Shown one piece after another: positions 8,521 to 25,836 of a stretch of DNA of 49,271 bases. This DNA comes from an uncultured Candidatus Saccharibacteria bacterium (GTDB lineage Bacteria > Patescibacteriota > Minisyncoccia > Phycocordibacterales > CAIZLB01), in NCBI GenBank assembly GCA_964607805.1, contig CAZSLF010000005.1, positions 1 through 49,271 on the forward strand. The letters run 5' to 3'. A program made the translations under genes and the position numbers. The notes beneath the pieces are model-generated. The model ran no database searches and was not told the origin of the DNA. It saw nothing but the letters and a program-made list of their open reading frames with translations. Numbering within the stretch: the first letter of the stretch is position 1; every line of letters starts with the position of its first letter.

Positions 8521-9750
8521 TTATTTTACCTTAACTTTTGACAAAAATTCTACGAACTTGTTTTTAAGGTATTCAATTTGATCTTTGTTTAGACCGTGAT
8601 GGCAGGCAACAACAAAACCACCTTTCATAATCTGCTCAGTATTTTTATAATCTTGAATAATTTGTCTATTCTCAATTCCTTTGTAACCAGGTTGCTTTAA
8701 GATATTTCCAGTGAAGATTGGTCTAGTCTGAATATTATTGTTTTCTAGGAATTCGATAAGGTCCATTCGAGCGAAAGGAGCATCTGGTCTGATAATAAGA
8801 GGGAAGGCTAACCAGGCAGTAGTAGTCTTTGGTGTTTGATTAGGAAGAATGAAATATTTTTCGTATGGACCAAAGAATTTAAGTAGGTTAGCAAAATTCT
8901 TTTTTCTTTCACTTAAGAATTTTGGTAATTTTTTGCATTGAGCAAGAGCGAAAGCTGATGAAATCTCAAGTGGTAAGAAGTTATATCCAATTTCACTAAA
9001 GATAAATTTATTATCATATGGGATTCCAGCTAGTTTTGTACTGAATCGATTTTTCAAAAGTTCAGAATTTGCCTTTTCACCGAAAAGAGAAGAGCTTCGG
9101 CCCCAGCCTCTAAGAACTACTAGTTTATCAACCCATTTTGGATCGTTTACCATGATCATGCCTCCACCACCTGCACCGTTGATAATATGAGAACCATAGA
9201 AACTTGTTACTGAAATATCAGAATAAACACCAGTAGGTTTACCATCATATGTTCCACCAAGAGTGTCACATGAGTCTTCAATAAAATAAATCTTATGTTT
9301 TTTTGCTAGAGCGGATAGAGCCTTCATGTTTGGAATATTTCCCATTAGAGAAGGGATCATTAGAGCTTTTGTTTTTGGGGTAATAGCCTTTTCAACTTGT
9401 TCTAGATTTATAAGGTATGTATCTGGATCAACATCGACAAAAACTGGCACAAGACCTTTTTGAATAATTGGAGCAACTACAGTTGCAAAAGTTAGAATTG
9501 GTGTAATTACTTCAGATCCCTTAGGAAGATTTAATATTTCAAAAGCAAGTAGGTTTGCTGATGAGCCTGAATTAACCATAACTCCATATTTCTTTCCAAA
9601 CATCTTGGCAATTTTAGCTTCAAACTCTTTTGTTTTATCGCCAAGAGCTGTATTTCCTTTAAGAATTTTTACTACAGCATCGATTTCTTCTTGACCATGA
9701 ACTGAGAAACCATAGGGAACTCGCATCTTTGAACTAGTTGATTTAGACAT
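8521..9750 (-). CDS. PLP-dependent NDP-4-keto-6-deoxyhexose 3-dehydratase (RfbH/DdhC- and ColD-like)
   Basis: VNSGSSANL, IEDSCDTLG, SFYGSH (His at the aminotransferase Lys position), GYN..PLE. Start placed at 9750 (MSKSTSSKMRVPYG) because the longer ORF runs through the divergent promoter. Confidence 0.82.
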   Translation of the reverse strand: MSKSTSSKMRVPYGFSVHGQEEIDAVVKILKGNTALGDKTKEFEAKIAKMFGKKYGVMVNSGSSANLLAFEILNLPKGSEVITPILTFATVVAPIIQKGLVPVFVDVDPDTYLINLEQVEKAITPKTKALMIPSLMGNIPNMKALSALAKKHKIYFIEDSCDTLGGTYDGKPTGVYSDISVTSFYGSHIINGAGGGGMIMVNDPKWVDKLVVLRGWGRSSSLFGEKANSELLKNRFSTKLAGIPYDNKFIFSEIGYNFLPLEISSAFALAQCKKLPKFLSERKKNFANLLKFFGPYEKYFILPNQTPKTTTAWLAFPLIIRPDAPFARMDLIEFLENNNIQTRPIFTGNILKQPGYKGIENRQIIQDYKNTEQIMKGGFVVACHHGLNKDQIEYLKNKFVEFLSKVKVK

Positions 9751-9776
9751 AATATTTATATTGTTTTTATGGGGAG

Positions 9777-9785
9777 ATAGTAGCA
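9777..9785 (-). promoter_or_regulatory. Extended -10 promoter for the leftward glycan operon
   Basis: Minus strand TG-C-TACTAT, 26 nt upstream of the ATG at 9750. Confidence 0.5.
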
Positions 9786-9794
9786 CGATATTTG

Positions 9795-9823
9795 TTGACA
9801 TGGAAGCCCTAAAGCAGTAGTGT
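9795..9823 (+). promoter_or_regulatory. sigma70-type promoter for the rightward glycan operon
   Basis: TTGACA (9795-9800), 17 nt, TAGTGT (9818-9823). Confidence 0.6.
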
Positions 9824-9853
9824 ATTTGGTACATACACCCTGTGTATCTATCT

Positions 9854-10936
9854 ATGGAAATTAAAAACTTTTATAAAAATAAAAAAGTTCTTGTTACAGG
9901 CCATACTGGGTTCAAAGGCAGTTGGCTTTCGCAGGTATTGCTAAATTTCGGTGCAGATGTTGTAGGTGTGTCACTTGCCCCTGACACAAAACCTAATTTA
10001 TACGAGGTTTTACAACAAGAGGGTAAGGTTAAAAGTTATTATTTAGATATAGAAGACTTTGAAGCTCTTAAAAAAGTTTTTATCGAAGAAAAACCTGAAA
10101 TTGTATTTCATATGGCCGCTCAGGCTATTGTTAGAACAGGATATCTTAATCCTCTTAGGACTTTTTCATCAAACGCTATGGGTACAGCCCATGTTCTTGA
10201 AGCAATTAGAGAGGTTGATAGTGTAAAGTCTGCAGTAATTATCACTACAGATAAAGTTTATGAAAACAAAGAGTGGCATCATGCATATAGAGAAAACGAT
10301 TCTCTTGGAGGATATGATCCCTATAGTGCAAGTAAGGCAGCTGCAGATATAATAACTAATTCTTATATTCAGTCATATTTTAATATTAAGCACTATAAAG
10401 AAAAGCATAACTCTCTTGTCGCTATCGCTAGAGCTGGAAACGTAATAGGAGGTGGTGACTGGGCTGAATATAGACTTATTCCAGATATTATCCGGGCTGT
10501 ATATGAAAAGAAAGAAAAGATAGAGAGTAGAAATCCTCAAGCTATAAGACCTTGGCAGCATGTTCTCGAGCCTCTTTCAGGTTATATGACCCTTGCACAG
10601 GCTCTTTACGAAGGAAGACCAGAAGTATCTGGTGCATGGAATTTTGGTCCTAACAACGAAAGTTTTGTTACAGTTGAGACTTTGATCAATCATGCGATTG
10701 AAATTCTAGGAGCAGGAACACATGATTCAAATCCTGATACTTCTCATATGCATGAGGCAAATCTATTAAAGTTAGATATTAATAAGGCGCATGCAATTTT
10801 GTCTTGGAAGCCGAGACTTCATTTACAAGAAAATTTGAAAATGACTTTTGATTGGTATCGTAACTACTATGAAAAAAGCGCAGATATTGTAGAATTCACT
10901 AATAGTCAGATTGAAGAATATTTTAATATAAAATAA
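9854..10936 (+). CDS. rfbG: CDP-glucose 4,6-dehydratase
   Basis: VLVTGHTGFKGSWL, HMAAQA, TTDKVYEN, GGYDPYSASK, RAGNVIGGGDW, RPWQHVLEPL. Start placed at MEIK. Confidence 0.95.
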   Translation: MEIKNFYKNKKVLVTGHTGFKGSWLSQVLLNFGADVVGVSLAPDTKPNLYEVLQQEGKVKSYYLDIEDFEALKKVFIEEKPEIVFHMAAQAIVRTGYLNPLRTFSSNAMGTAHVLEAIREVDSVKSAVIITTDKVYENKEWHHAYRENDSLGGYDPYSASKAAADIITNSYIQSYFNIKHYKEKHNSLVAIARAGNVIGGGDWAEYRLIPDIIRAVYEKKEKIESRNPQAIRPWQHVLEPLSGYMTLAQALYEGRPEVSGAWNFGPNNESFVTVETLINHAIEILGAGTHDSNPDTSHMHEANLLKLDINKAHAILSWKPRLHLQENLKMTFDWYRNYYEKSADIVEFTNSQIEEYFNIK

Positions 10937-21427: not shown

Positions 21428-21539
21428 AGAAGGGAATTACTTAACAAGTTAAGTAAAATAGATAAATTGCGCTATAGACAAAAAATAATTTAGAAAAAAT
21501 AAAAATAAAAAAGTTTTTTCGAAAAATATTTTTTAAAAG

Positions 21540-21548
21540 TTATCCACA
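21540..21548 (+). promoter_or_regulatory. Perfect DnaA-box consensus
   Basis: TTATCCACA in an AT-rich intergenic tract. Single copy only. Confidence 0.4.
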
Positions 21549-21667
21549 ATATTTTGAAAAAAAATATTGTAATGAAGTGAAGAGTGAACGATAATTAACT
21601 TACATTTACATATGCATCGTCGGCACTTGTAAATTATAATAAATAAGAGCTCTTTAATTTAACTCAC

Positions 21668-21754
21668 ATGGCTAAAGCAAAAAAAGCAAAGAAGGCAAAG
21701 AAAGTTGCAAAGAAAAAGGCAACTAAGAAGAAGGCAAAGAAGTCTCGAGCGTAA
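21668..21754 (+). CDS. 28-aa Lys/Ala-rich basic micropeptide (histone H1/Hc1-tail-like)
   Basis: ATG...TAA encodes MAKAKKAKKAKKVAKKKATKKKAKKSRA. TATAAT at 21635-21640 upstream, terminator downstream. Below the ORF-track size cutoff. Confidence 0.75.
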   Translation: MAKAKKAKKAKKVAKKKATKKKAKKSRA

Positions 21755-21794
21755 TCTCGAAATTTCCAAGCAGTCTAATTTAAAACTTCGACTC

Positions 21795-21826
21795 GCAAAA
21801 ATCCCCACACCACTGGGGATTTTTGC
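21795..21826. terminator. Bidirectional-type intrinsic terminator
   Basis: GCAAAAATCCCCA-CACCAC-TGGGGATTTTTGC (13 bp perfect). Confidence 0.85.
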
Positions 21827-21945
21827 ATGGTTTAATTTTGTACAACTTTATAAATTATTTTGGTGTTTTTAGCTTTTGATATGCTATGTGTTGCGACATA
21901 TCAGCAGGCTTCCACTTTTCCGGAAAAATGGTAAAGTGTATGCCT

Positions 21946-24693
21946 ATGAACATGCTTTCATCTATTTTCCCATCTCGGTCAGAAAGGGTCGTAAAATCCT
22001 ATCGAAAAACAGTCGATGCTGTTAATAATTTAGAGCCTGAAATTAAGGCTCTAAGTGATATTGAGTTAAGGGCTAGAAGTTTGGCTCTAAAGGATAAAAT
22101 TCAGAGCGCTCAAGCTGATAGTTCTGAAGGAGCGAAACCAGGGCAAGCCGATAAAGCCGTAGAGGCAAAATCTTTAGATACATATATACCAGAAGCTTTT
22201 GCTCTAGTTCGGGAAGCATCAAGACGAACACTTGGACAAAGACATTACGATGTTCAGTTAATAGGAGGAATGGTAATTCACAGTGGATCAATTGCCGAGA
22301 TGAAAACTGGAGAAGGTAAAACTCTTATGGCCACTTTGGCTGCGTATTTAAATGCATTGTCAGGAAAAGGTGTACATATAATTACTGTAAACGATTATCT
22401 ATCTCGTCGAGATGCTGTTTGGATGGGACAGATTTACCATATGCTTGGTTTGTCTATTGCAGTTGTGAACGCTGATTCATCTTTTATATATGATCCTGCG
22501 CATATAACTCCTGATCCAGGACAAACTCAAGAACAAGCAGAAAAAGAAGTTGATAAAGCAGAAGATGAAACAGGCGCTTTCAAAGTTCAATATGAATACC
22601 TAAGACCAGTTACAAGACGTGAAGCATATGCAGCAGATATTACTTATGGAACTAATAGTGAATTTGGTTTTGATTATTTGAGAGATAATCTTGAGCGAAC
22701 ACCAGGAGGACTTCGTCAGAGAGGTTTTAATTTCGTAATTGTGGATGAAGTAGACTCAATTTTGATTGATGAAGCCCGTACACCACTTATTATTTCAGCT
22801 GCATCGGGAGATTCAGGAAGTCTATATGTAACTTTTGCTCAGATTGTTAAGGGTATGGAAGAGGAGGTTCATTTTACAAAAAATGAAAAATATAAAAGCA
22901 TAGCAGTAACAGATGCTGGAATTGATTATGCTGAGCAAGCACTTGGAATTTCTAATATTTATTCAGAGGGAGGAATTAAGTATGTTCATCATCTTGAGAA
23001 CGCAATTCGTGCCCAAGCCATATATAAGAACGAAATCGACTATATCGTAAAGGAAGGCGAAATTTTAATTGTTGATCCTGCGACGGGTCGTGTTAAGGGT
23101 GGACACCGATGGAGTGAAGGTCTGCACCAAGCAATCGAAGCTAAAGAAGGTGTTAAAATTCAGCAAGAATCTAGAACGCAGGCTTCTATTACATTTCAAA
23201 ATTATTTTAAACTATATCCAAAACTTTCGGGTATGACAGGAACAGGACAAACAAGTTCTGAGGAGTTTATTAAAGTGTACGATGTTGAAGTTATTTCAGT
23301 TCCGACTCATAGACCTGTGGCACGAGCGGACAAAGCTGATTTGATCTTCAAAACAGAAGCCGGAAAATTTCAGGCTGTAACAAATAGAATTAAAGAATTG
23401 CATGAAAAAGGTCAGCCTGTTCTAGTTGGTACAGTTTCAATTGAGAAAAGTCAGGAATTAGGAATCTTGCTTAAGAAAGCAGGTGTTCCGCACTTGCTAC
23501 TAAACGCTAAACCAGAATTTGCTGAAAGAGAAGGAGAGACGATTGCGCAGGCAGGTAAGCGTGGTGCTGTAACTATTGCCACAAACATGGCGGGCCGAGG
23601 TGTTGATATTAAGCTCGGAGGCGCACCAAGTACTCCTGAAAGTTATGAAGAGATTAAAAATCTTGGAGGTTTATATGTAATTGGTACAGAAAGACATGAA
23701 GCGCGACGAATTGATAATCAGCTTCGAGGACGATCTGGACGACAAGGTGATCCAGGCGAAACACAATTTTATGTATCACTTGAAGATTACCTTATGCGCA
23801 ATTTCGCCGGCAATGATTTCGTAAAGAAAATGATGGATAAAATGAAAATTCCAGACGATATGCCAATTGAGACAAGTATGGTTTCAAGAAGTCTTGAAAA
23901 TGCTCAAACAAAAATTGAAGGCTGGTATTTTGATTCACGAAAGCAAGTTTTCGAATTCGACAATGTTCTAAACCAACAAAGACTAAAAGTTTATAGTGAT
24001 CGTAGAAAAGTTTTAATTGGTGAAGAAGCCGATCTTGAAACTTTCTACAATTCTCTTGTCGATTTCGGAGACGACGAAGATAAAGAAGCTTTAAAAACAA
24101 AGCGAGAAGAGATTGAAAAGGGTAGTGGTGGTGTCAGTGGAGGTGCAAGTGGAAGTGCCAGTCCTAGCACTAGTGTAAGCATGAGCGCGTTTTTATCTAT
24201 TTTTAGAAATGTAATGCTACAAGCAATCGACACTTTCTGGATTGAACATCTAGAAACTATGGATCATCTACGAGGCAGTGTAAATTTGCGAGCATATGGC
24301 CAGCACGATCCTCTTGTGGAATATAAGAGAGAGGGGCATACACTCTTTAAGCAAATGGACGCAGCTATCAAAGCTCAAACTTTGCAAGTATTAAAATCTC
24401 TTACACTTGAAGTTGGAAAAGATATAAGTTTTGAACAACAAGTTGGCGATGAATCTAAGCTTGTTTTAAGCGGGCCTCAAAGTGGAGTTGCTGGATTAAG
24501 TGGGTTGGCTTCACCTTTGGGTTCAGGTGGTCAGGTAGGTTCTCTCGACGTTCGATCTATTGATCCAACTTTAGGCTCAGATTTAGTGAAGACCTCTACT
24601 GTTGTAAGTGGTCAGGATAAAGTAGGCAGAAATGACCCTTGTCCTTGTGGATCTGGAAAGAAATATAAGAAGTGTCACGGCCAAAACGCTTAA
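21946..24693 (+). CDS. secA: Preprotein translocase ATPase SecA
   Basis: EMKTGEGKT, DEVDSILIDEARTP, TNMAGRG.DI, RRIDNQLRGRSGRQGDPG and the C-terminal GRNDPCPCGSGKKYKKCH zinc site. Start placed 8 nt after TG-G-TAAAGT (21952 is an alternative). Confidence 0.97.
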   Translation: MNMLSSIFPSRSERVVKSYRKTVDAVNNLEPEIKALSDIELRARSLALKDKIQSAQADSSEGAKPGQADKAVEAKSLDTYIPEAFALVREASRRTLGQRHYDVQLIGGMVIHSGSIAEMKTGEGKTLMATLAAYLNALSGKGVHIITVNDYLSRRDAVWMGQIYHMLGLSIAVVNADSSFIYDPAHITPDPGQTQEQAEKEVDKAEDETGAFKVQYEYLRPVTRREAYAADITYGTNSEFGFDYLRDNLERTPGGLRQRGFNFVIVDEVDSILIDEARTPLIISAASGDSGSLYVTFAQIVKGMEEEVHFTKNEKYKSIAVTDAGIDYAEQALGISNIYSEGGIKYVHHLENAIRAQAIYKNEIDYIVKEGEILIVDPATGRVKGGHRWSEGLHQAIEAKEGVKIQQESRTQASITFQNYFKLYPKLSGMTGTGQTSSEEFIKVYDVEVISVPTHRPVARADKADLIFKTEAGKFQAVTNRIKELHEKGQPVLVGTVSIEKSQELGILLKKAGVPHLLLNAKPEFAEREGETIAQAGKRGAVTIATNMAGRGVDIKLGGAPSTPESYEEIKNLGGLYVIGTERHEARRIDNQLRGRSGRQGDPGETQFYVSLEDYLMRNFAGNDFVKKMMDKMKIPDDMPIETSMVSRSLENAQTKIEGWYFDSRKQVFEFDNVLNQQRLKVYSDRRKVLIGEEADLETFYNSLVDFGDDEDKEALKTKREEIEKGSGGVSGGASGSASPSTSVSMSAFLSIFRNVMLQAIDTFWIEHLETMDHLRGSVNLRAYGQHDPLVEYKREGHTLFKQMDAAIKAQTLQVLKSLTLEVGKDISFEQQVGDESKLVLSGPQSGVAGLSGLASPLGSGGQVGSLDVRSIDPTLGSDLVKTSTVVSGQDKVGRNDPCPCGSGKKYKKCHGQNA

Positions 24694-24750
24694 TTTGCAC
24701 GTAAGTTCGAGCAATATACACAATTTGTATTAGTGGGCTATAATATCGAT

Positions 24751-25836
24751 ATGACATCTAAATCAGGAACTGAGAAGCAACAAGCAATATTTTCAGCTGT
24801 AATTTTTACAGTAATTGCAATTTTAGCACTAATGGTTTTTTGGCCATTTTTAAATGTACTCGCTCTATCAATAATAATGGCGGTACTTTTAACTCCACTT
24901 TACAATCGTATTCGACGTAGAGTGAAATTTGAAAGTTTATCTGCAGCATTAACAATTTTGTTTCTATTAATAGTGATTATTGTTCCTATTGCATTTATCA
25001 TCAATAATATAATTACAGAAGCACAATCTCTGTATTCAAATGTTAGCAATACTTCAAATATTTCATCAGATCAATTAACTGCTTGGATTGAAGGAAAAGT
25101 TCAGGTTTATATCCCTGAGTTTACTGTAGATGCAAGAGGATATTTAGCAGCCTTTTCATCTTGGGTAGTTTCTAAATTAGGTGGAATATTCTCAGGTACT
25201 TTGGACTTCGCATTTAAGTTAGCTCTTTCTTTTATCGCACTCTTTTATTTCTTGAAAGATGGAGATAAGCTACGAAAACATTTGATTGCACTTTCACCTT
25301 GGAGTGATGAAAGAGATGAAATAGTTTTAGGTTCAATCAGAACTGCAATTCGATCAGTTGTTGCCGGATCACTAACCGTTGCCTTAGTTCAAGGGTTTTT
25401 GGTAGGAGTTAGTTTTCTAATTTCAGGTGTTCCAAATCCAACTTTATGGGGAACTTTAGCTGCAGTCAGTGCCCTTGTTCCCGGTGTTGGTACGGCAATA
25501 GTTATGATTCCTGCAATTATCTTTTTATTTGTTGTAGATCCTTCAGGATGGGAATGGATTTTCCAGCTCGCATGGGCAATTGGAATCGTAGGTCTTGTTG
25601 ATAATTTCTTGGGCCCTGTAATTATGCAAAAGGGAATTCATATTCATCCACTATTAATTCTATTCTCAGTTTTGGGAGGAATACAATTCTTTGGCCCAGA
25701 AGGTTTCTTGCTAGGTCCACTTGTCCTTAGTTTATTATTTGTACTAGTTAGAACTTTAAAGGGTGATGTTCACTTGGTTGCTGCAGCAGGAGCAGGCGAT
25801 GGCGATTCAGTCAATAATTCAGGCAGCGACAAATAG
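24751..25836 (+). CDS. AI-2E family transporter
   Basis: About 8 TM helices; P.VGTA, VDNFLGP, IHPLLILFSVLGGIQFFG..GFLLGP. ATG 6 nt after TATAAT. Confidence 0.9.
   Translation: MTSKSGTEKQQAIFSAVIFTVIAILALMVFWPFLNVLALSIIMAVLLTPLYNRIRRRVKFESLSAALTILFLLIVIIVPIAFIINNIITEAQSLYSNVSNTSNISSDQLTAWIEGKVQVYIPEFTVDARGYLAAFSSWVVSKLGGIFSGTLDFAFKLALSFIALFYFLKDGDKLRKHLIALSPWSDERDEIVLGSIRTAIRSVVAGSLTVALVQGFLVGVSFLISGVPNPTLWGTLAAVSALVPGVGTAIVMIPAIIFLFVVDPSGWEWIFQLAWAIGIVGLVDNFLGPVIMQKGIHIHPLLILFSVLGGIQFFGPEGFLLGPLVLSLLFVLVRTLKGDVHLVAAAGAGDGDSVNNSGSDK

What the first reader, a model, noticed from the sequence alone, without database searches (positions are those of the whole stretch)
21635..21826. Unannotated 28-aa Lys/Ala micropeptide gene with its own promoter and terminator: candidate minimal nucleoid-compacting protein
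Seen: MAKAKKAKKAKKVAKKKATKKKAKKSRA, with 15 Lys, 1 Arg and no acidic residues. Lys codons alternate AAA and AAG, so this is not a simple nucleotide repeat. TATAAT lies 27 nt upstream and a perfect 13-bp terminator follows. Known: AKK-type repeats are the DNA-condensing parts of histone H1 tails, chlamydial Hc1/Hc2, Bordetella BpH1 and AlgP. Inference: an ultra-small cell may use a free H1-tail-like peptide to pack its genome or neutralise polyanions. Standard gene callers would miss it.
Basis: partly seen in the sequence, partly recalled or inferred. Interest (0 to 1): 0.65.

Follow-up and report, generated by a model that had tools for sequence, protein, structure and literature searches.

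The report
Conserved lysine-rich micro-gene before secA
A 28-codon gene that no gene caller has recorded encodes an extremely positively charged lysine/alanine peptide. The gene, with its own promoter, folded RNA leader and terminator, is kept across a whole class of ultra-small (CPR) bacteria, so it is very probably a real nucleic-acid-coating micro-protein, though its function is untested.

Summary
The ORF (21668-21754, MAKAKKAKKAKKVAKKKATKKKAKKSRA) and its 13-bp terminator hairpin are real.

- **Conservation.** A 16-64 aa acid-free Lys/Ala ORF lies just upstream of secA in all 6 genera of the family. It is also there in 13 of 18 sampled families of the order and 6 of 28 other families of the class. 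It is absent from 28 genomes of other CPR classes and about 60 non-CPR loci.
- **Coding signals.**
  - Substitutions concentrate at codon position 3 (60/64/158).
  - AAG makes up 65% of Lys codons, against 33% genome-wide.
  - AAA-AAA pairs are avoided.
  - Arg clusters at the C-terminus.
- **Promoter.** The conserved promoter is TTGTAA-17-GATAAT (21567-21595), with a perfect DnaA box (TTATCCACA, 21540) exactly 50 nt before the -10.
- **Leader.** A roughly 66-nt leader follows, with a 5' hairpin that displays a conserved GUCGR motif.
- **Not a secA switch.** secA has its own leaderless-type promoter, so the ORF is not an attenuator.
- **Function.** Most likely an abundant free polycation for DNA (H1-tail-like) whose synthesis is tied to replication. 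A ribosome-bound micro-protein is the main rival.
- **Untested.** Transcription, translation and binding.

The parts
21540..21548 (+). TTATCCACA, a perfect DnaA-box consensus, centred about 58 nt before the predicted transcript start
   Evidence: The box is invariant in the first 8 loci. It starts 49-50 nt before the -10 hexamer in 28 of 42 loci, and 43-53 nt before it in 34 of 42. In this genome 12 of the 17 boxes are intergenic, and one precedes an RNR-like gene.
21567..21572 (+). -35 hexamer TTGTAA
   Evidence: Found by the promoter scan. The TTG is invariant in the alignment.
21590..21597 (+). -10 element GATAAT(TA). The predicted transcript start is about 21602-21604.
   Evidence: Found by the promoter scan. 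GATAATTA is invariant across genera. The start site itself is inferred, not measured.
21604..21634 (+). 5' leader hairpin. The apical loop AUCGUCG (21616-21622) carries the conserved GUCGR motif (GUCGG, 21619-21623).
   Evidence: RNAalifold gives 10 pairs, 4 of them with compensatory changes. Cells are 89.6% paired, against 13-58% when the partners are slid, and the covariation score is reached by 7 of 500 shuffles. A GUCRR or GGUCG motif is present in nearly all 42 leaders and in class-level loci about 40-50 nt before the ATG.
21635..21640 (+). It is probably not the promoter.
   Evidence: Present in the window but not conserved in same-genus or same-family loci. The promoter scan finds no matching -35.
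21645..21654 (+). Palindrome AAGAGCTCTT in the unstructured A/U-rich part of the leader
   Evidence: Conserved in genus g1 and, as a variant, in g4, g5 and G003. Its role is unknown.
21668..21754 (+). 28-codon ORF encoding MAKAKKAKKAKKVAKKKATKKKAKKSRA (net charge +16)
   Evidence: ORF listed. Orthologous ORFs appear. Differences by codon position are 60/64/158, with 108 synonymous against 79 non-synonymous codon changes. AAG makes up 65% of Lys codons against 33% genome-wide, and AAA-AAA pairs 8% against 38%. There are 0 acidic residues in 1362, and Arg is 30% of the last four residues against 2.7% elsewhere.
21795..21826 (+). Intrinsic terminator: 13-bp perfect stem, 6-nt loop, U-run
   Evidence: Fold. 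An equivalent hairpin with a T-run follows the ORF in 40 of 42 loci.
21929..21948 (+). secA's own extended -10 (TGgTAAAGT, 21929-21937), 8 nt before the true secA start codon (21946). It is not part of the micro-gene, but it shows that secA is independent.
   Evidence: Homologues align from residue 21 of the long ORF. A TGnTAnnnT-type element 7-9 nt before the ATG is conserved in most loci.

Best explanation
This is a real, independently transcribed and translated micro-gene.

**The transcription unit**
- A sigma-70-type promoter (TTGTAA-17-GATAAT) has a consensus DnaA box fixed 50 nt upstream of the -10.
- It drives an mRNA of about 225 nt.
- The mRNA has a leader of about 66 nt whose 5' hairpin presents a conserved single-stranded GUCGR motif.
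- Next comes an unstructured A/U-rich stretch that serves for initiation without a Shine-Dalgarno sequence, which is the norm in this genome.
- Then follow the 28-codon ORF and an intrinsic terminator.

**The product and its proposed role**
- The product is an acid-free Lys/Ala peptide with a net charge of +16.
- I propose that it acts as an abundant polycation without sequence specificity, binding and neutralising nucleic acid.
- The most likely target is chromosomal DNA, in the manner of a free histone-H1 tail.
- Synthesis would be tied to the replication cycle through DnaA and probably tuned after transcription through the leader motif.

**Shown here:** the sequence features, their deep conservation, the coding-type substitution and codon patterns, and independence from secA.

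**Inferred:** DnaA binding, actual transcription and translation, abundance, and the binding target.
For: **Conservation**
- Present in all 6 genera of the family, 13 of 18 sampled families of the order and 6 of 28 other families of the class.
- Present in 5 of the 7 closest SecA loci in GTDB contigs, which are labelled Patescibacteria, Paceibacteria or Saccharibacteria.
- Absent from 28 other-class CPR loci and from about 60 non-CPR loci.

**Coding signatures**
- Third-position differences are 2.5 times higher than at positions 1 or 2, and synonymous codon changes outnumber non-synonymous ones.
- Lys codon preference is reversed relative to the genome, and AAA-AAA pairs are avoided. This fits selection against ribosome sliding on A-runs (PMC4363877).
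- MAAKKK starts, Arg-rich ends and zero acidic residues recur across the family.

**Independent unit**
- The promoter, box, leader and terminator are conserved.
- secA has its own extended -10 next to its ATG.
- In G011 the unit survives 7.6 kb away from secA.
- The missing Shine-Dalgarno sequence is normal here: 1 of 41 genes has one.

**DNA-directed reading**
- Composition and length plasticity (28 against 37 aa within the genus, 16-64 aa overall) resemble Hc2 and H1 tails (PMC2848022) rather than fixed ribosomal peptides.
- The same box type precedes the RNR-like gene, a classic member of the DnaA regulon.
- HU in relatives is short and carries no lysine tail.
Against: - There is no expression or proteomic evidence.
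- Pfam and NCBIfam scans give no hit, so there is no detectable homology to Hc1, Hc2 or AlgP.
- A conserved structured leader with a specific loop motif is more typical of autoregulated RNA-binding or ribosomal proteins than of known nucleoid proteins.
- The tight, class-wide linkage to secA is not explained by a nucleoid role.
- The DnaA-box identification rests on the universal consensus only. dnaA is missing from this 79%-complete assembly, though present in relatives. The boxes near dnaA in relatives are few.
- The codon-position counts come from overlapping, related pairs aligned through the protein.
Confidence: 0.45

Rival explanations
1. The peptide is a ribosome- or rRNA-bound micro-protein, analogous to bS22, bL37, Thx or eL41. 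The conserved GUCGR leader hairpin would be a mimic of its rRNA site, used for translational autoregulation.
For: - Its size, charge and invisibility to gene callers match bS22 and bL37 (PMC10081302).
- It has a strong stand-alone promoter, a 5' hairpin and a terminator, as expected for a very abundant product.
- The leader loop motif is conserved across the class, which is typical of ribosomal-protein leaders.
- Its neighbours secA and a release-factor-sized ORF (24733-25836, not annotated here) sit in a translation and secretion context.
Against: - Length varies from 16 to 64 aa, and from 28 to 37 aa within one genus, through repeat-like indels. Known ribosomal micro-proteins have fixed length and conserved sequence.
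- No NCBIfam hit.
- The DnaA-box promoter, shared with the RNR-like gene, points to replication rather than ribosome synthesis.
- HPF is encoded elsewhere.
Confidence: 0.22
2. The peptide is a general intracellular counter-ion that substitutes for polyamines. It would be an encoded oligolysine buffering RNA, polyphosphate and DNA charge in cells that cannot make spermidine.
For: - Spermidine synthase (PF01564) is absent from 7 of 8 genomes of the order, several of them 99-100% complete.
- The sequence is extreme in charge and low in information.
- AlgP-type Lys-rich proteins organise polyphosphate (PMC9239181).
Against: - Only one polyamine enzyme family was checked. Uptake and other synthesis routes were not examined.
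- This reading does not explain the DnaA box or the specific leader motif.
- It overlaps with the best explanation rather than excluding it.
Confidence: 0.13
3. The ORF is a cis-regulatory leader peptide for secA, acting either as a Lys-codon-sensing transcription attenuator or as a SecM-like arrest peptide.
For: - A small ORF plus a terminator hairpin lies 190 nt before secA in the same orientation.
- The pairing is conserved across the order and part of the class.
- Poly-Lys stretches slow ribosomes (PMC9207662).
Against: - secA carries its own conserved extended -10, 7-9 nt before its ATG.
- No alternative antiterminator fold was found.
- The peptide has no signal peptide or arrest motif.
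- Codon choice (AAG, no long A-runs) minimises stalling rather than promoting it.
- The unit persists 7.6 kb from secA in G011.
- The peptide sequence itself is under position-specific constraint.
Confidence: 0.06
4. The transcript is a non-coding small RNA and the purine-rich ORF is incidental.
For: - The transcript is short, with a 5' hairpin and a terminator.
- T-poor sequence is automatically free of stop codons.
- There is no Shine-Dalgarno sequence.
Against: - No Rfam match.
- Substitutions follow three-base periodicity with an excess at position 3.
- ATG-GCN starts and Arg-rich ends are conserved, with a stop directly after the Lys tract.
- Other frames contain stops or lack an ATG.
- Lys codon bias is opposite to the genome's.
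- Shine-Dalgarno sequences are absent genome-wide.
Confidence: 0.06
5. The peptide is an exported cationic peptide, either antimicrobial or acting on a host cell, in the manner of a leaderless bacteriocin.
For: - It is cationic, 20-60 aa long and has no leader.
- CPR bacteria are episymbionts.
- It is adjacent to a secretion gene.
Against: - It is only about 7% Val, with no Leu, Ile, Phe or Trp, and about 56% Lys plus Arg. That is too polar for membrane-active peptides.
- There is no dedicated ABC exporter or immunity gene nearby.
- SecA substrates need signal peptides.
Confidence: 0.04

Closest known systems
Bacterial histone H1-like Lys/Ala repeat proteins: Chlamydia Hc1/Hc2 (HctA/HctB), Bordetella BpH1, Pseudomonas AlgP; also the eukaryotic histone H1 C-terminal tail
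   Same: - Acid-free K/A/V/T/P composition built from KK-xx units.
- Length varies through gain and loss of repeats, as shown for Hc2 (PMC2848022).
- Expected electrostatic binding of DNA or polyphosphate (AlgP: PMC9239181).
   Different: - Those proteins are about 125-350 aa, whereas this family is 16-64 aa (28 aa here).
- No HMM-detectable relationship.
- This unit has its own DnaA-box promoter, GUCGR leader hairpin and linkage to secA.
- Binding has not been tested.
Tiny polybasic ribosomal proteins bS22, bL37, Thx and eL41
   Same: - 24-33 aa, very basic, long overlooked by annotation.
- Encoded as small stand-alone genes.
- bS22 sits at 16S helix 44 (PMC10081302).
   Different: - Those have fixed length and conserved Arg/Lys patterns that fit an rRNA pocket. 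This family is a variable-length Lys/Ala repeat.
- No NCBIfam match.
- Presence in the ribosome has not been tested.
SecM-secA and classical leader-peptide attenuators (trpL, hisL, pheL)
   Same: A short ORF followed by a hairpin directly upstream of secA, or of a regulated gene, on the same strand.
   Different: - No signal sequence or arrest motif.
- secA has its own promoter at its start codon.
- The micro-gene keeps all its signals when it is separated from secA (G011).
- Codon usage avoids stalling.
The same cassette noted earlier in this scan in Paceibacteria-like and Levybacteria genomes (AI notes, unpublished)
   Same: A poly-Lys micro-ORF before secA, a DnaA-box promoter, a folded leader with a helix-enclosed GGUCGA, a terminator, and secA with its own promoter. 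I saw the box, hairpin and promoter here before reading those notes.
   Different: - This is a different genome and family.
- The peptide here is of the Lys/Ala (AKK) type and there is no Shine-Dalgarno sequence.
- My phylum sample (0 of 28) did not recover the cassette outside this class.

Membership tests
Histone H1-like bacterial proteins Hc1/Hc2 (Pfam PF07432 and PF07382, accessions recalled from memory) and AlgP/BpH1-type proteins | Match to the family profile | tested here: not met
   hmmscan of 5 family peptides against Pfam-A at E<=10 gave no H1-like family.
Histone H1-like bacterial proteins Hc1/Hc2 (Pfam PF07432 and PF07382, accessions recalled from memory) and AlgP/BpH1-type proteins | Acid-free Lys/Ala-rich repeat composition with variable repeat number | tested here: met
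   The 42 peptides are K 50%, A 22%, V 7%, T 6% and R 6%, with 0 Asp or Glu in 1362 residues. Lengths are 16-55 aa in this set, and up to 64 aa at class level.
Histone H1-like bacterial proteins Hc1/Hc2 (Pfam PF07432 and PF07382, accessions recalled from memory) and AlgP/BpH1-type proteins | DNA binding and condensation | not testable with these tools
   Needs EMSA, condensation assays or expression in E. coli.
Tiny polybasic ribosomal proteins (bS22, bL37, Thx) | Match to the NCBIfam naming models | tested here: not met
   No NCBIfam hit at E<=10 for 5 peptides.
Tiny polybasic ribosomal proteins (bS22, bL37, Thx) | Fixed length and conserved sequence across the lineage | tested here: not met
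   28, 28, 29, 37 and 37 aa within the genus, and 21-47 aa within the family.
Tiny polybasic ribosomal proteins (bS22, bL37, Thx) | Physical presence in the ribosome | not testable with these tools
   Needs ribosome purification, MS or cryo-EM.
Leader-peptide attenuator or SecM-type regulator of secA | The downstream gene lacks its own promoter and depends on the leader transcript | tested here: not met
   A conserved TGnTAAAGT-type extended -10 lies 7-9 nt before the secA ATG in most loci.
Leader-peptide attenuator or SecM-type regulator of secA | An alternative antiterminator structure competes with the terminator | tested here: inconclusive
   The minimum-free-energy and centroid folds of 21755-21835 show only the terminator and a small spacer hairpin. 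No systematic search for alternative pairings was done.
Leader-peptide attenuator or SecM-type regulator of secA | N-terminal signal or transmembrane segment and a C-terminal arrest motif (SecM, MifM, RAPP class) | tested here: not met
   The peptide has no hydrophobic segment and no Pro-rich arrest motif.
Leader-peptide attenuator or SecM-type regulator of secA | Obligate adjacency to the regulated gene | tested here: not met
   In G011 the complete unit is 7.6 kb from secA.
Intrinsic (Rho-independent) terminator | G+C-containing hairpin followed by or ending in a U-run | tested here: met
   A 13-bp stem with z-score -3.9. Equivalent hairpins follow the ORF in 40 of 42 loci.
DnaA-box-controlled promoter | 9-mer TTATCCACA consensus at a fixed, conserved position relative to the promoter | tested here: met
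   A perfect box at 21540. Spacing to the -10 is 49-50 nt in 28 of 42 loci.
DnaA-box-controlled promoter | DnaA is present and binds the box | not testable with these tools
   dnaA was found in 7 of 7 relatives but not in this incomplete assembly. Binding needs a footprint or EMSA.
Any Rfam RNA family | Covariance-model match | tested here: not met
   No match at gathering score in the window. Only chance-level hits at E 0.3-0.8 in 21430-21950.

The most novel reading that the evidence does not exclude
One class of Patescibacteria carries a core, never-annotated gene for a genetically encoded oligolysine.

- It would be a free histone-H1-tail or protamine-like polycation of 16-64 residues.
- DnaA would couple its transcription to chromosome replication.
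- Its mRNA leader (a helix-presented GUCGR motif) would be a new feedback sensor that sets the free polycation level.
- In cells with a single short HU and no spermidine synthase, this peptide would be the main agent of nucleic-acid charge neutralisation and compaction.
Probability: 0.2. Interest if true: 0.8.

Novelty: new variant of a known kind. Interest (0 to 1): 0.6.

Why it matters
- If the peptide is made, it is among the shortest conserved stand-alone bacterial genes. It would be a minimal form of the H1-tail or protamine principle, showing how ultra-small cells with very few nucleoid proteins and apparently no spermidine synthesis handle DNA and RNA charge.
- It adds a hidden core gene to CPR genomes, which are otherwise described as lacking many functions.
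- It gives a concrete DnaA regulon member and a new conserved leader RNA motif to test.
- It shows that annotation pipelines systematically miss this class: 0 of 10 family peptides are in a 15-billion-protein collection.
- The unexplained class-wide linkage to secA is a second open question.

Tried and rejected
1. **Sequence homology searches.** The search for homologous proteins refuses queries under 40 aa. A 47-aa relative gave no hit at E<=1, because of low-complexity bias correction. Pfam, NCBIfam and Rfam gave nothing.
3. **Replication origin.** The idea came from the AT-rich tract plus the DnaA box, and I rejected it.
   - There is a single box.
   - GC skew and gene orientation switch near 9.8 kb, not 21.5 kb.
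   - dnaA lies on other contigs in relatives, with boxes in the dnaA-dnaN spacer.
4. **Replacement for HPF.** In Firmicutes, as I recall, hpf sits before secA. I rejected the idea because a short HPF is present elsewhere in all 8 genomes checked.
5. **Attenuator or SecM-like switch for secA.** Rejected; see the rival explanations.
6. **Antisense ORF 21659-21808 (49 aa, Leu/Cys/Phe-rich).**
   - It is automatically open opposite a Lys/Ala frame.
   - Variation at sense codon position 3 would be non-synonymous for it.
   - All conserved signals face the + strand.
7. **An error of my own.** My first SecA comparison used a wrong reading frame. It was corrected.
8. **Mimicry of 16S helix 44.** The similarity between leader GUCGR and 16S GUCGUAAC is only 4-5 nt, which is too short to test, so I did not pursue it.

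Full report
**Observation**

The window holds the ORF as described: ATG 21668 to TAA 21754, encoding MAKAKKAKKAKKVAKKKATKKKAKKSRA with 15 Lys, 1 Arg and no acidic residue. It uses 10 AAG and 5 AAA codons. Tandem Repeats Finder reports only weak, imperfect arrays of period 9 and 12.

The hairpin at 21795-21826 is a perfect 13-bp stem with a 6-nt loop. It folds at about -21 kcal/mol, with z = -3.9 and no shuffle folding as well. TATAAT is present at 21635-21640. In the whole 0.84-Mb assembly this is the only Lys/Ala-type small ORF.

**Organism**

The assembly has 30 contigs, 38.5% G+C and 79% completeness. The closest SecA records in GTDB contigs carry the labels Candidatus Saccharibacteria, Adlerbacteria, Paceibacteria or Patescibacteria group. 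Relatives have genomes of 0.5-1.1 Mb. It is therefore a CPR/Patescibacteria bacterium, probably of the Paceibacteria-type class. That class assignment rests on record titles only.

**Conservation**

A DNA search of 40 relatives matched the region in same-genus genomes at 78-81% identity. The match extends from well upstream of the ORF into the ORF. Every locus inspected carries a 21-47 aa ORF that starts MAAKKK or MAKKKK and is followed by a terminator hairpin.

I then anchored on secA to sample more widely:

| Sample | Loci with the micro-ORF directly upstream of secA, same strand |
|---|---|
| Genera of the family | all 6 |
| Families of the order | 13 of 18 sampled |
| Other families of the class | 6 convincing of 28 |
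| Closest SecA loci in GTDB contigs | 5 of 7 (one is a 135-aa K/R/P/A repeat ORF) |
| Other CPR classes | 0 of 28 |
| Non-CPR SecA loci | 0 of about 60 |

The feature is thus specific to this lineage. It is not a by-product of AT-rich sequence.

**Is it coding?**

Openness of the frame is weak evidence on its own, because T-poor sequence has no stop codons. Four other lines are stronger.

1. In 16 pairwise comparisons covering 500 codons, differences fall 60, 64 and 158 at codon positions 1, 2 and 3. Synonymous codon changes number 108 against 79 non-synonymous. The pairs are related and were aligned through the protein, so these are descriptive counts rather than a formal test. Ungapped pairs of equal length show the same pattern.
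2. Lys codon choice is inverted. AAG makes up 65% in 42 micro-ORFs and 10 of 15 codons here, against 33% in 485 long ORFs of this genome. AAA-AAA pairs fall from 38% to 8%, and the longest A-run is 8. Iterated AAA causes ribosome sliding and low output (PMC4363877), so this bias is what selection for faithful, efficient translation would produce.
3. Constraints are position-specific. Ala is the second residue in 35 of 42 peptides. Arg is 30% of the last four residues against 2.7% elsewhere. There are no acidic residues among 1362.
4. The other frames contain stops or lack a start.

The antisense Leu/Cys/Phe ORF is open automatically, and variation at sense position 3 would be non-synonymous for it. 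The missing Shine-Dalgarno sequence is not an argument against translation. Only 1 of 41 window genes has one, and many genes have a -10 element 7-12 nt before the ATG, suggesting leaderless mRNAs.

None of ten family peptides exists in a collection of about 15 billion predicted proteins. There is no Pfam, NCBIfam or Rfam match.

**Transcription unit**

The features that are conserved, in order along the strand, are listed below.

- **A-rich tract.**
- **TTATCCACA (21540-21548).** This is the perfect DnaA-box consensus.
- **TTG of a -35 (TTGTAA, 21567).**
- **GATAATTA (21590).**

The box starts 49-50 nt before the -10 in 28 of 42 loci and 43-53 nt before it in 34 of 42, across many families. 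That centres it near -58, a typical activator position.

In this genome 12 of 17 such boxes are intergenic. Several sit just upstream of promoter-like sequences. One lies 121 nt before a 1021-aa ribonucleotide-reductase-like ORF. I identified that ORF from its N-terminal sequence by eye; nrd genes are classic DnaA-regulated genes, which I state from established knowledge.

dnaA is missing from this incomplete assembly but present in all seven relatives tested. In those relatives one to three boxes lie next to dnaA.

**Leader**

From the predicted start at about 21602, the leader of about 66 nt begins with a hairpin (21604-21634).

- RNAalifold finds 10 pairs, 4 with compensatory changes.
- Cells are 89.6% paired against 13-58% in slid controls, and the covariation score is reached by 7 of 500 shuffles. 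This is moderate support.
- The loop carries GUCGG. A GUCGR or GGUCGR motif recurs in nearly all leaders, in a hairpin apex or at the extreme 5' end. It lies about 40-50 nt before the ATG, including in class-level loci whose leaders are otherwise unalignable.
- By my own rough estimate from base frequencies, not a tool result, about 0.2 occurrences per leader would be expected by chance.

An AAGAGCTCTT palindrome (21645-21654) is also conserved in several genera. A hairpin with a T-run follows the ORF in 40 of 42 loci.

**Relation to secA**

SecA homologues align from residue 21 of the long ORF, so secA starts at 21946. Eight nucleotides upstream lies TGgTAAAGT. A TGnTAnnnT-type element is conserved at that distance in most loci. 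secA therefore appears to be read from its own promoter as a leaderless mRNA.

In G011 the micro-gene keeps its box, promoter, leader and terminator although secA is 7.6 kb away. The peptide has no signal sequence or arrest motif, its codon usage minimises stalling, and no antiterminator fold appears.

An attenuator or SecM-like role is therefore unlikely. I could not explain why the linkage to secA is so persistent.

**Other ideas tested**

- *Replication origin:* rejected. There is a single box, and GC skew and gene orientation flip near 9.8 kb.
- *HPF replacement:* rejected. A short HPF is found elsewhere in 8 of 8 genomes.
- *Nucleoid and polyamine context:* HU is a single short protein without a Lys tail in relatives. 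Spermidine synthase is absent from 7 of 8 genomes. Both fit, weakly, a need for another polycation.

**Mechanism**

I commit to this reading: a strongly expressed, stable short mRNA yields an abundant, intrinsically disordered polycation (+16 in 28 residues) that binds nucleic acid electrostatically.

DNA is favoured as the target for two reasons. The family evolves like Hc2 and H1 tails, with repeat-number plasticity (28 against 37 aa within a genus; PMC2848022). The promoter carries a phased DnaA box of the kind that also precedes the RNR-like gene.

The main rival is a ribosome-bound micro-protein like bS22 or bL37 (PMC10081302), with the leader motif serving autoregulation. The conserved leader favours that rival, but the variable length argues against it.

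None of this was tested experimentally.

**Novelty**

Full-text searches found no paper that describes such a gene in CPR bacteria. Earlier AI notes of this scan describe the same cassette in Paceibacteria-like and Levybacteria genomes. They agree with what I had already seen here, and they prompted the wider search for the GUCGR motif. My own phylum sample did not recover the cassette outside this class.

I rate it a new variant of a known kind (H1-like polycations or tiny basic proteins). It is a well-supported micro-gene with unusual regulation and unknown function.

Noticed in passing
whole window; e.g. 33232, 37383, 39853, 45026: The genome has almost no Shine-Dalgarno motifs (1 of 41 genes). 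Many genes carry a TATAAT-like -10 only 7-12 nt before the ATG, which suggests widespread leaderless mRNAs.
   Followed up: partly
21886-21948: The longest secA ORF starts at 21886, but homologues align from residue 21. The true start is probably ATG 21946, preceded by an extended -10 (TGgTAAAGT, 21929-21937) that is conserved in relatives.
   Followed up: yes
G000 contigs C1, C3, C4, C8, C10, C16, C17, C23 (outside the window): There are 17 TTATCCACA boxes in the assembly, 12 of them intergenic. One lies 121 nt before a roughly 1021-aa ribonucleotide-reductase-like ORF (C4:38539). Paired or inverted boxes occur at C8:28297, C10:25599 and C23:4743. Together they look like a small DnaA regulon.
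   Followed up: partly
21450-21465: The palindrome ACTTAACAAGTTAAGT lies just after the stop of the 763-aa TPR membrane protein gene. It is conserved in the genus as TTAACANGTTAA. It could be a protein site or a weak terminator.
   Followed up: no
21877-21903: The inverted repeat TGATATG-N13-CATATCA lies between the micro-gene terminator and the secA promoter.
   Followed up: no
L048 / G011:C5:42035-42136 against secA at G011:C5:49748: In one genome of the family about 7.6 kb, including at least three ORFs, separates the micro-gene from secA. The micro-gene keeps its box, promoter, leader and terminator.
   Followed up: partly
L061 178-582 (Patescibacteria SAG AM-311-L09): A 135-aa K/R/P/A repeat ORF (KRKPAKRKTAA units) occupies the same position before secA. 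It may be an expanded form of the micro-protein.
   Followed up: no
8 genomes of the order (G000, G001, G004, G005, G025, G033, G038, G039): Spermidine synthase (PF01564) is absent from 7 of 8 genomes. HU is a single short gene in the 7 relatives. dnaA and hupB are missing from the incomplete G000 assembly.
   Followed up: partly
about 9000-10000: GC skew changes sign and gene orientation flips at 9834/9842, where two divergent genes lie only 7 nt apart.
   Followed up: no
G000 C1:89047-89109 (- strand): A second tiny basic ORF, MPKGMQKGKEKKKPKKVKAK (20 aa), is unrelated in type to the Lys/Ala peptide.
   Followed up: no
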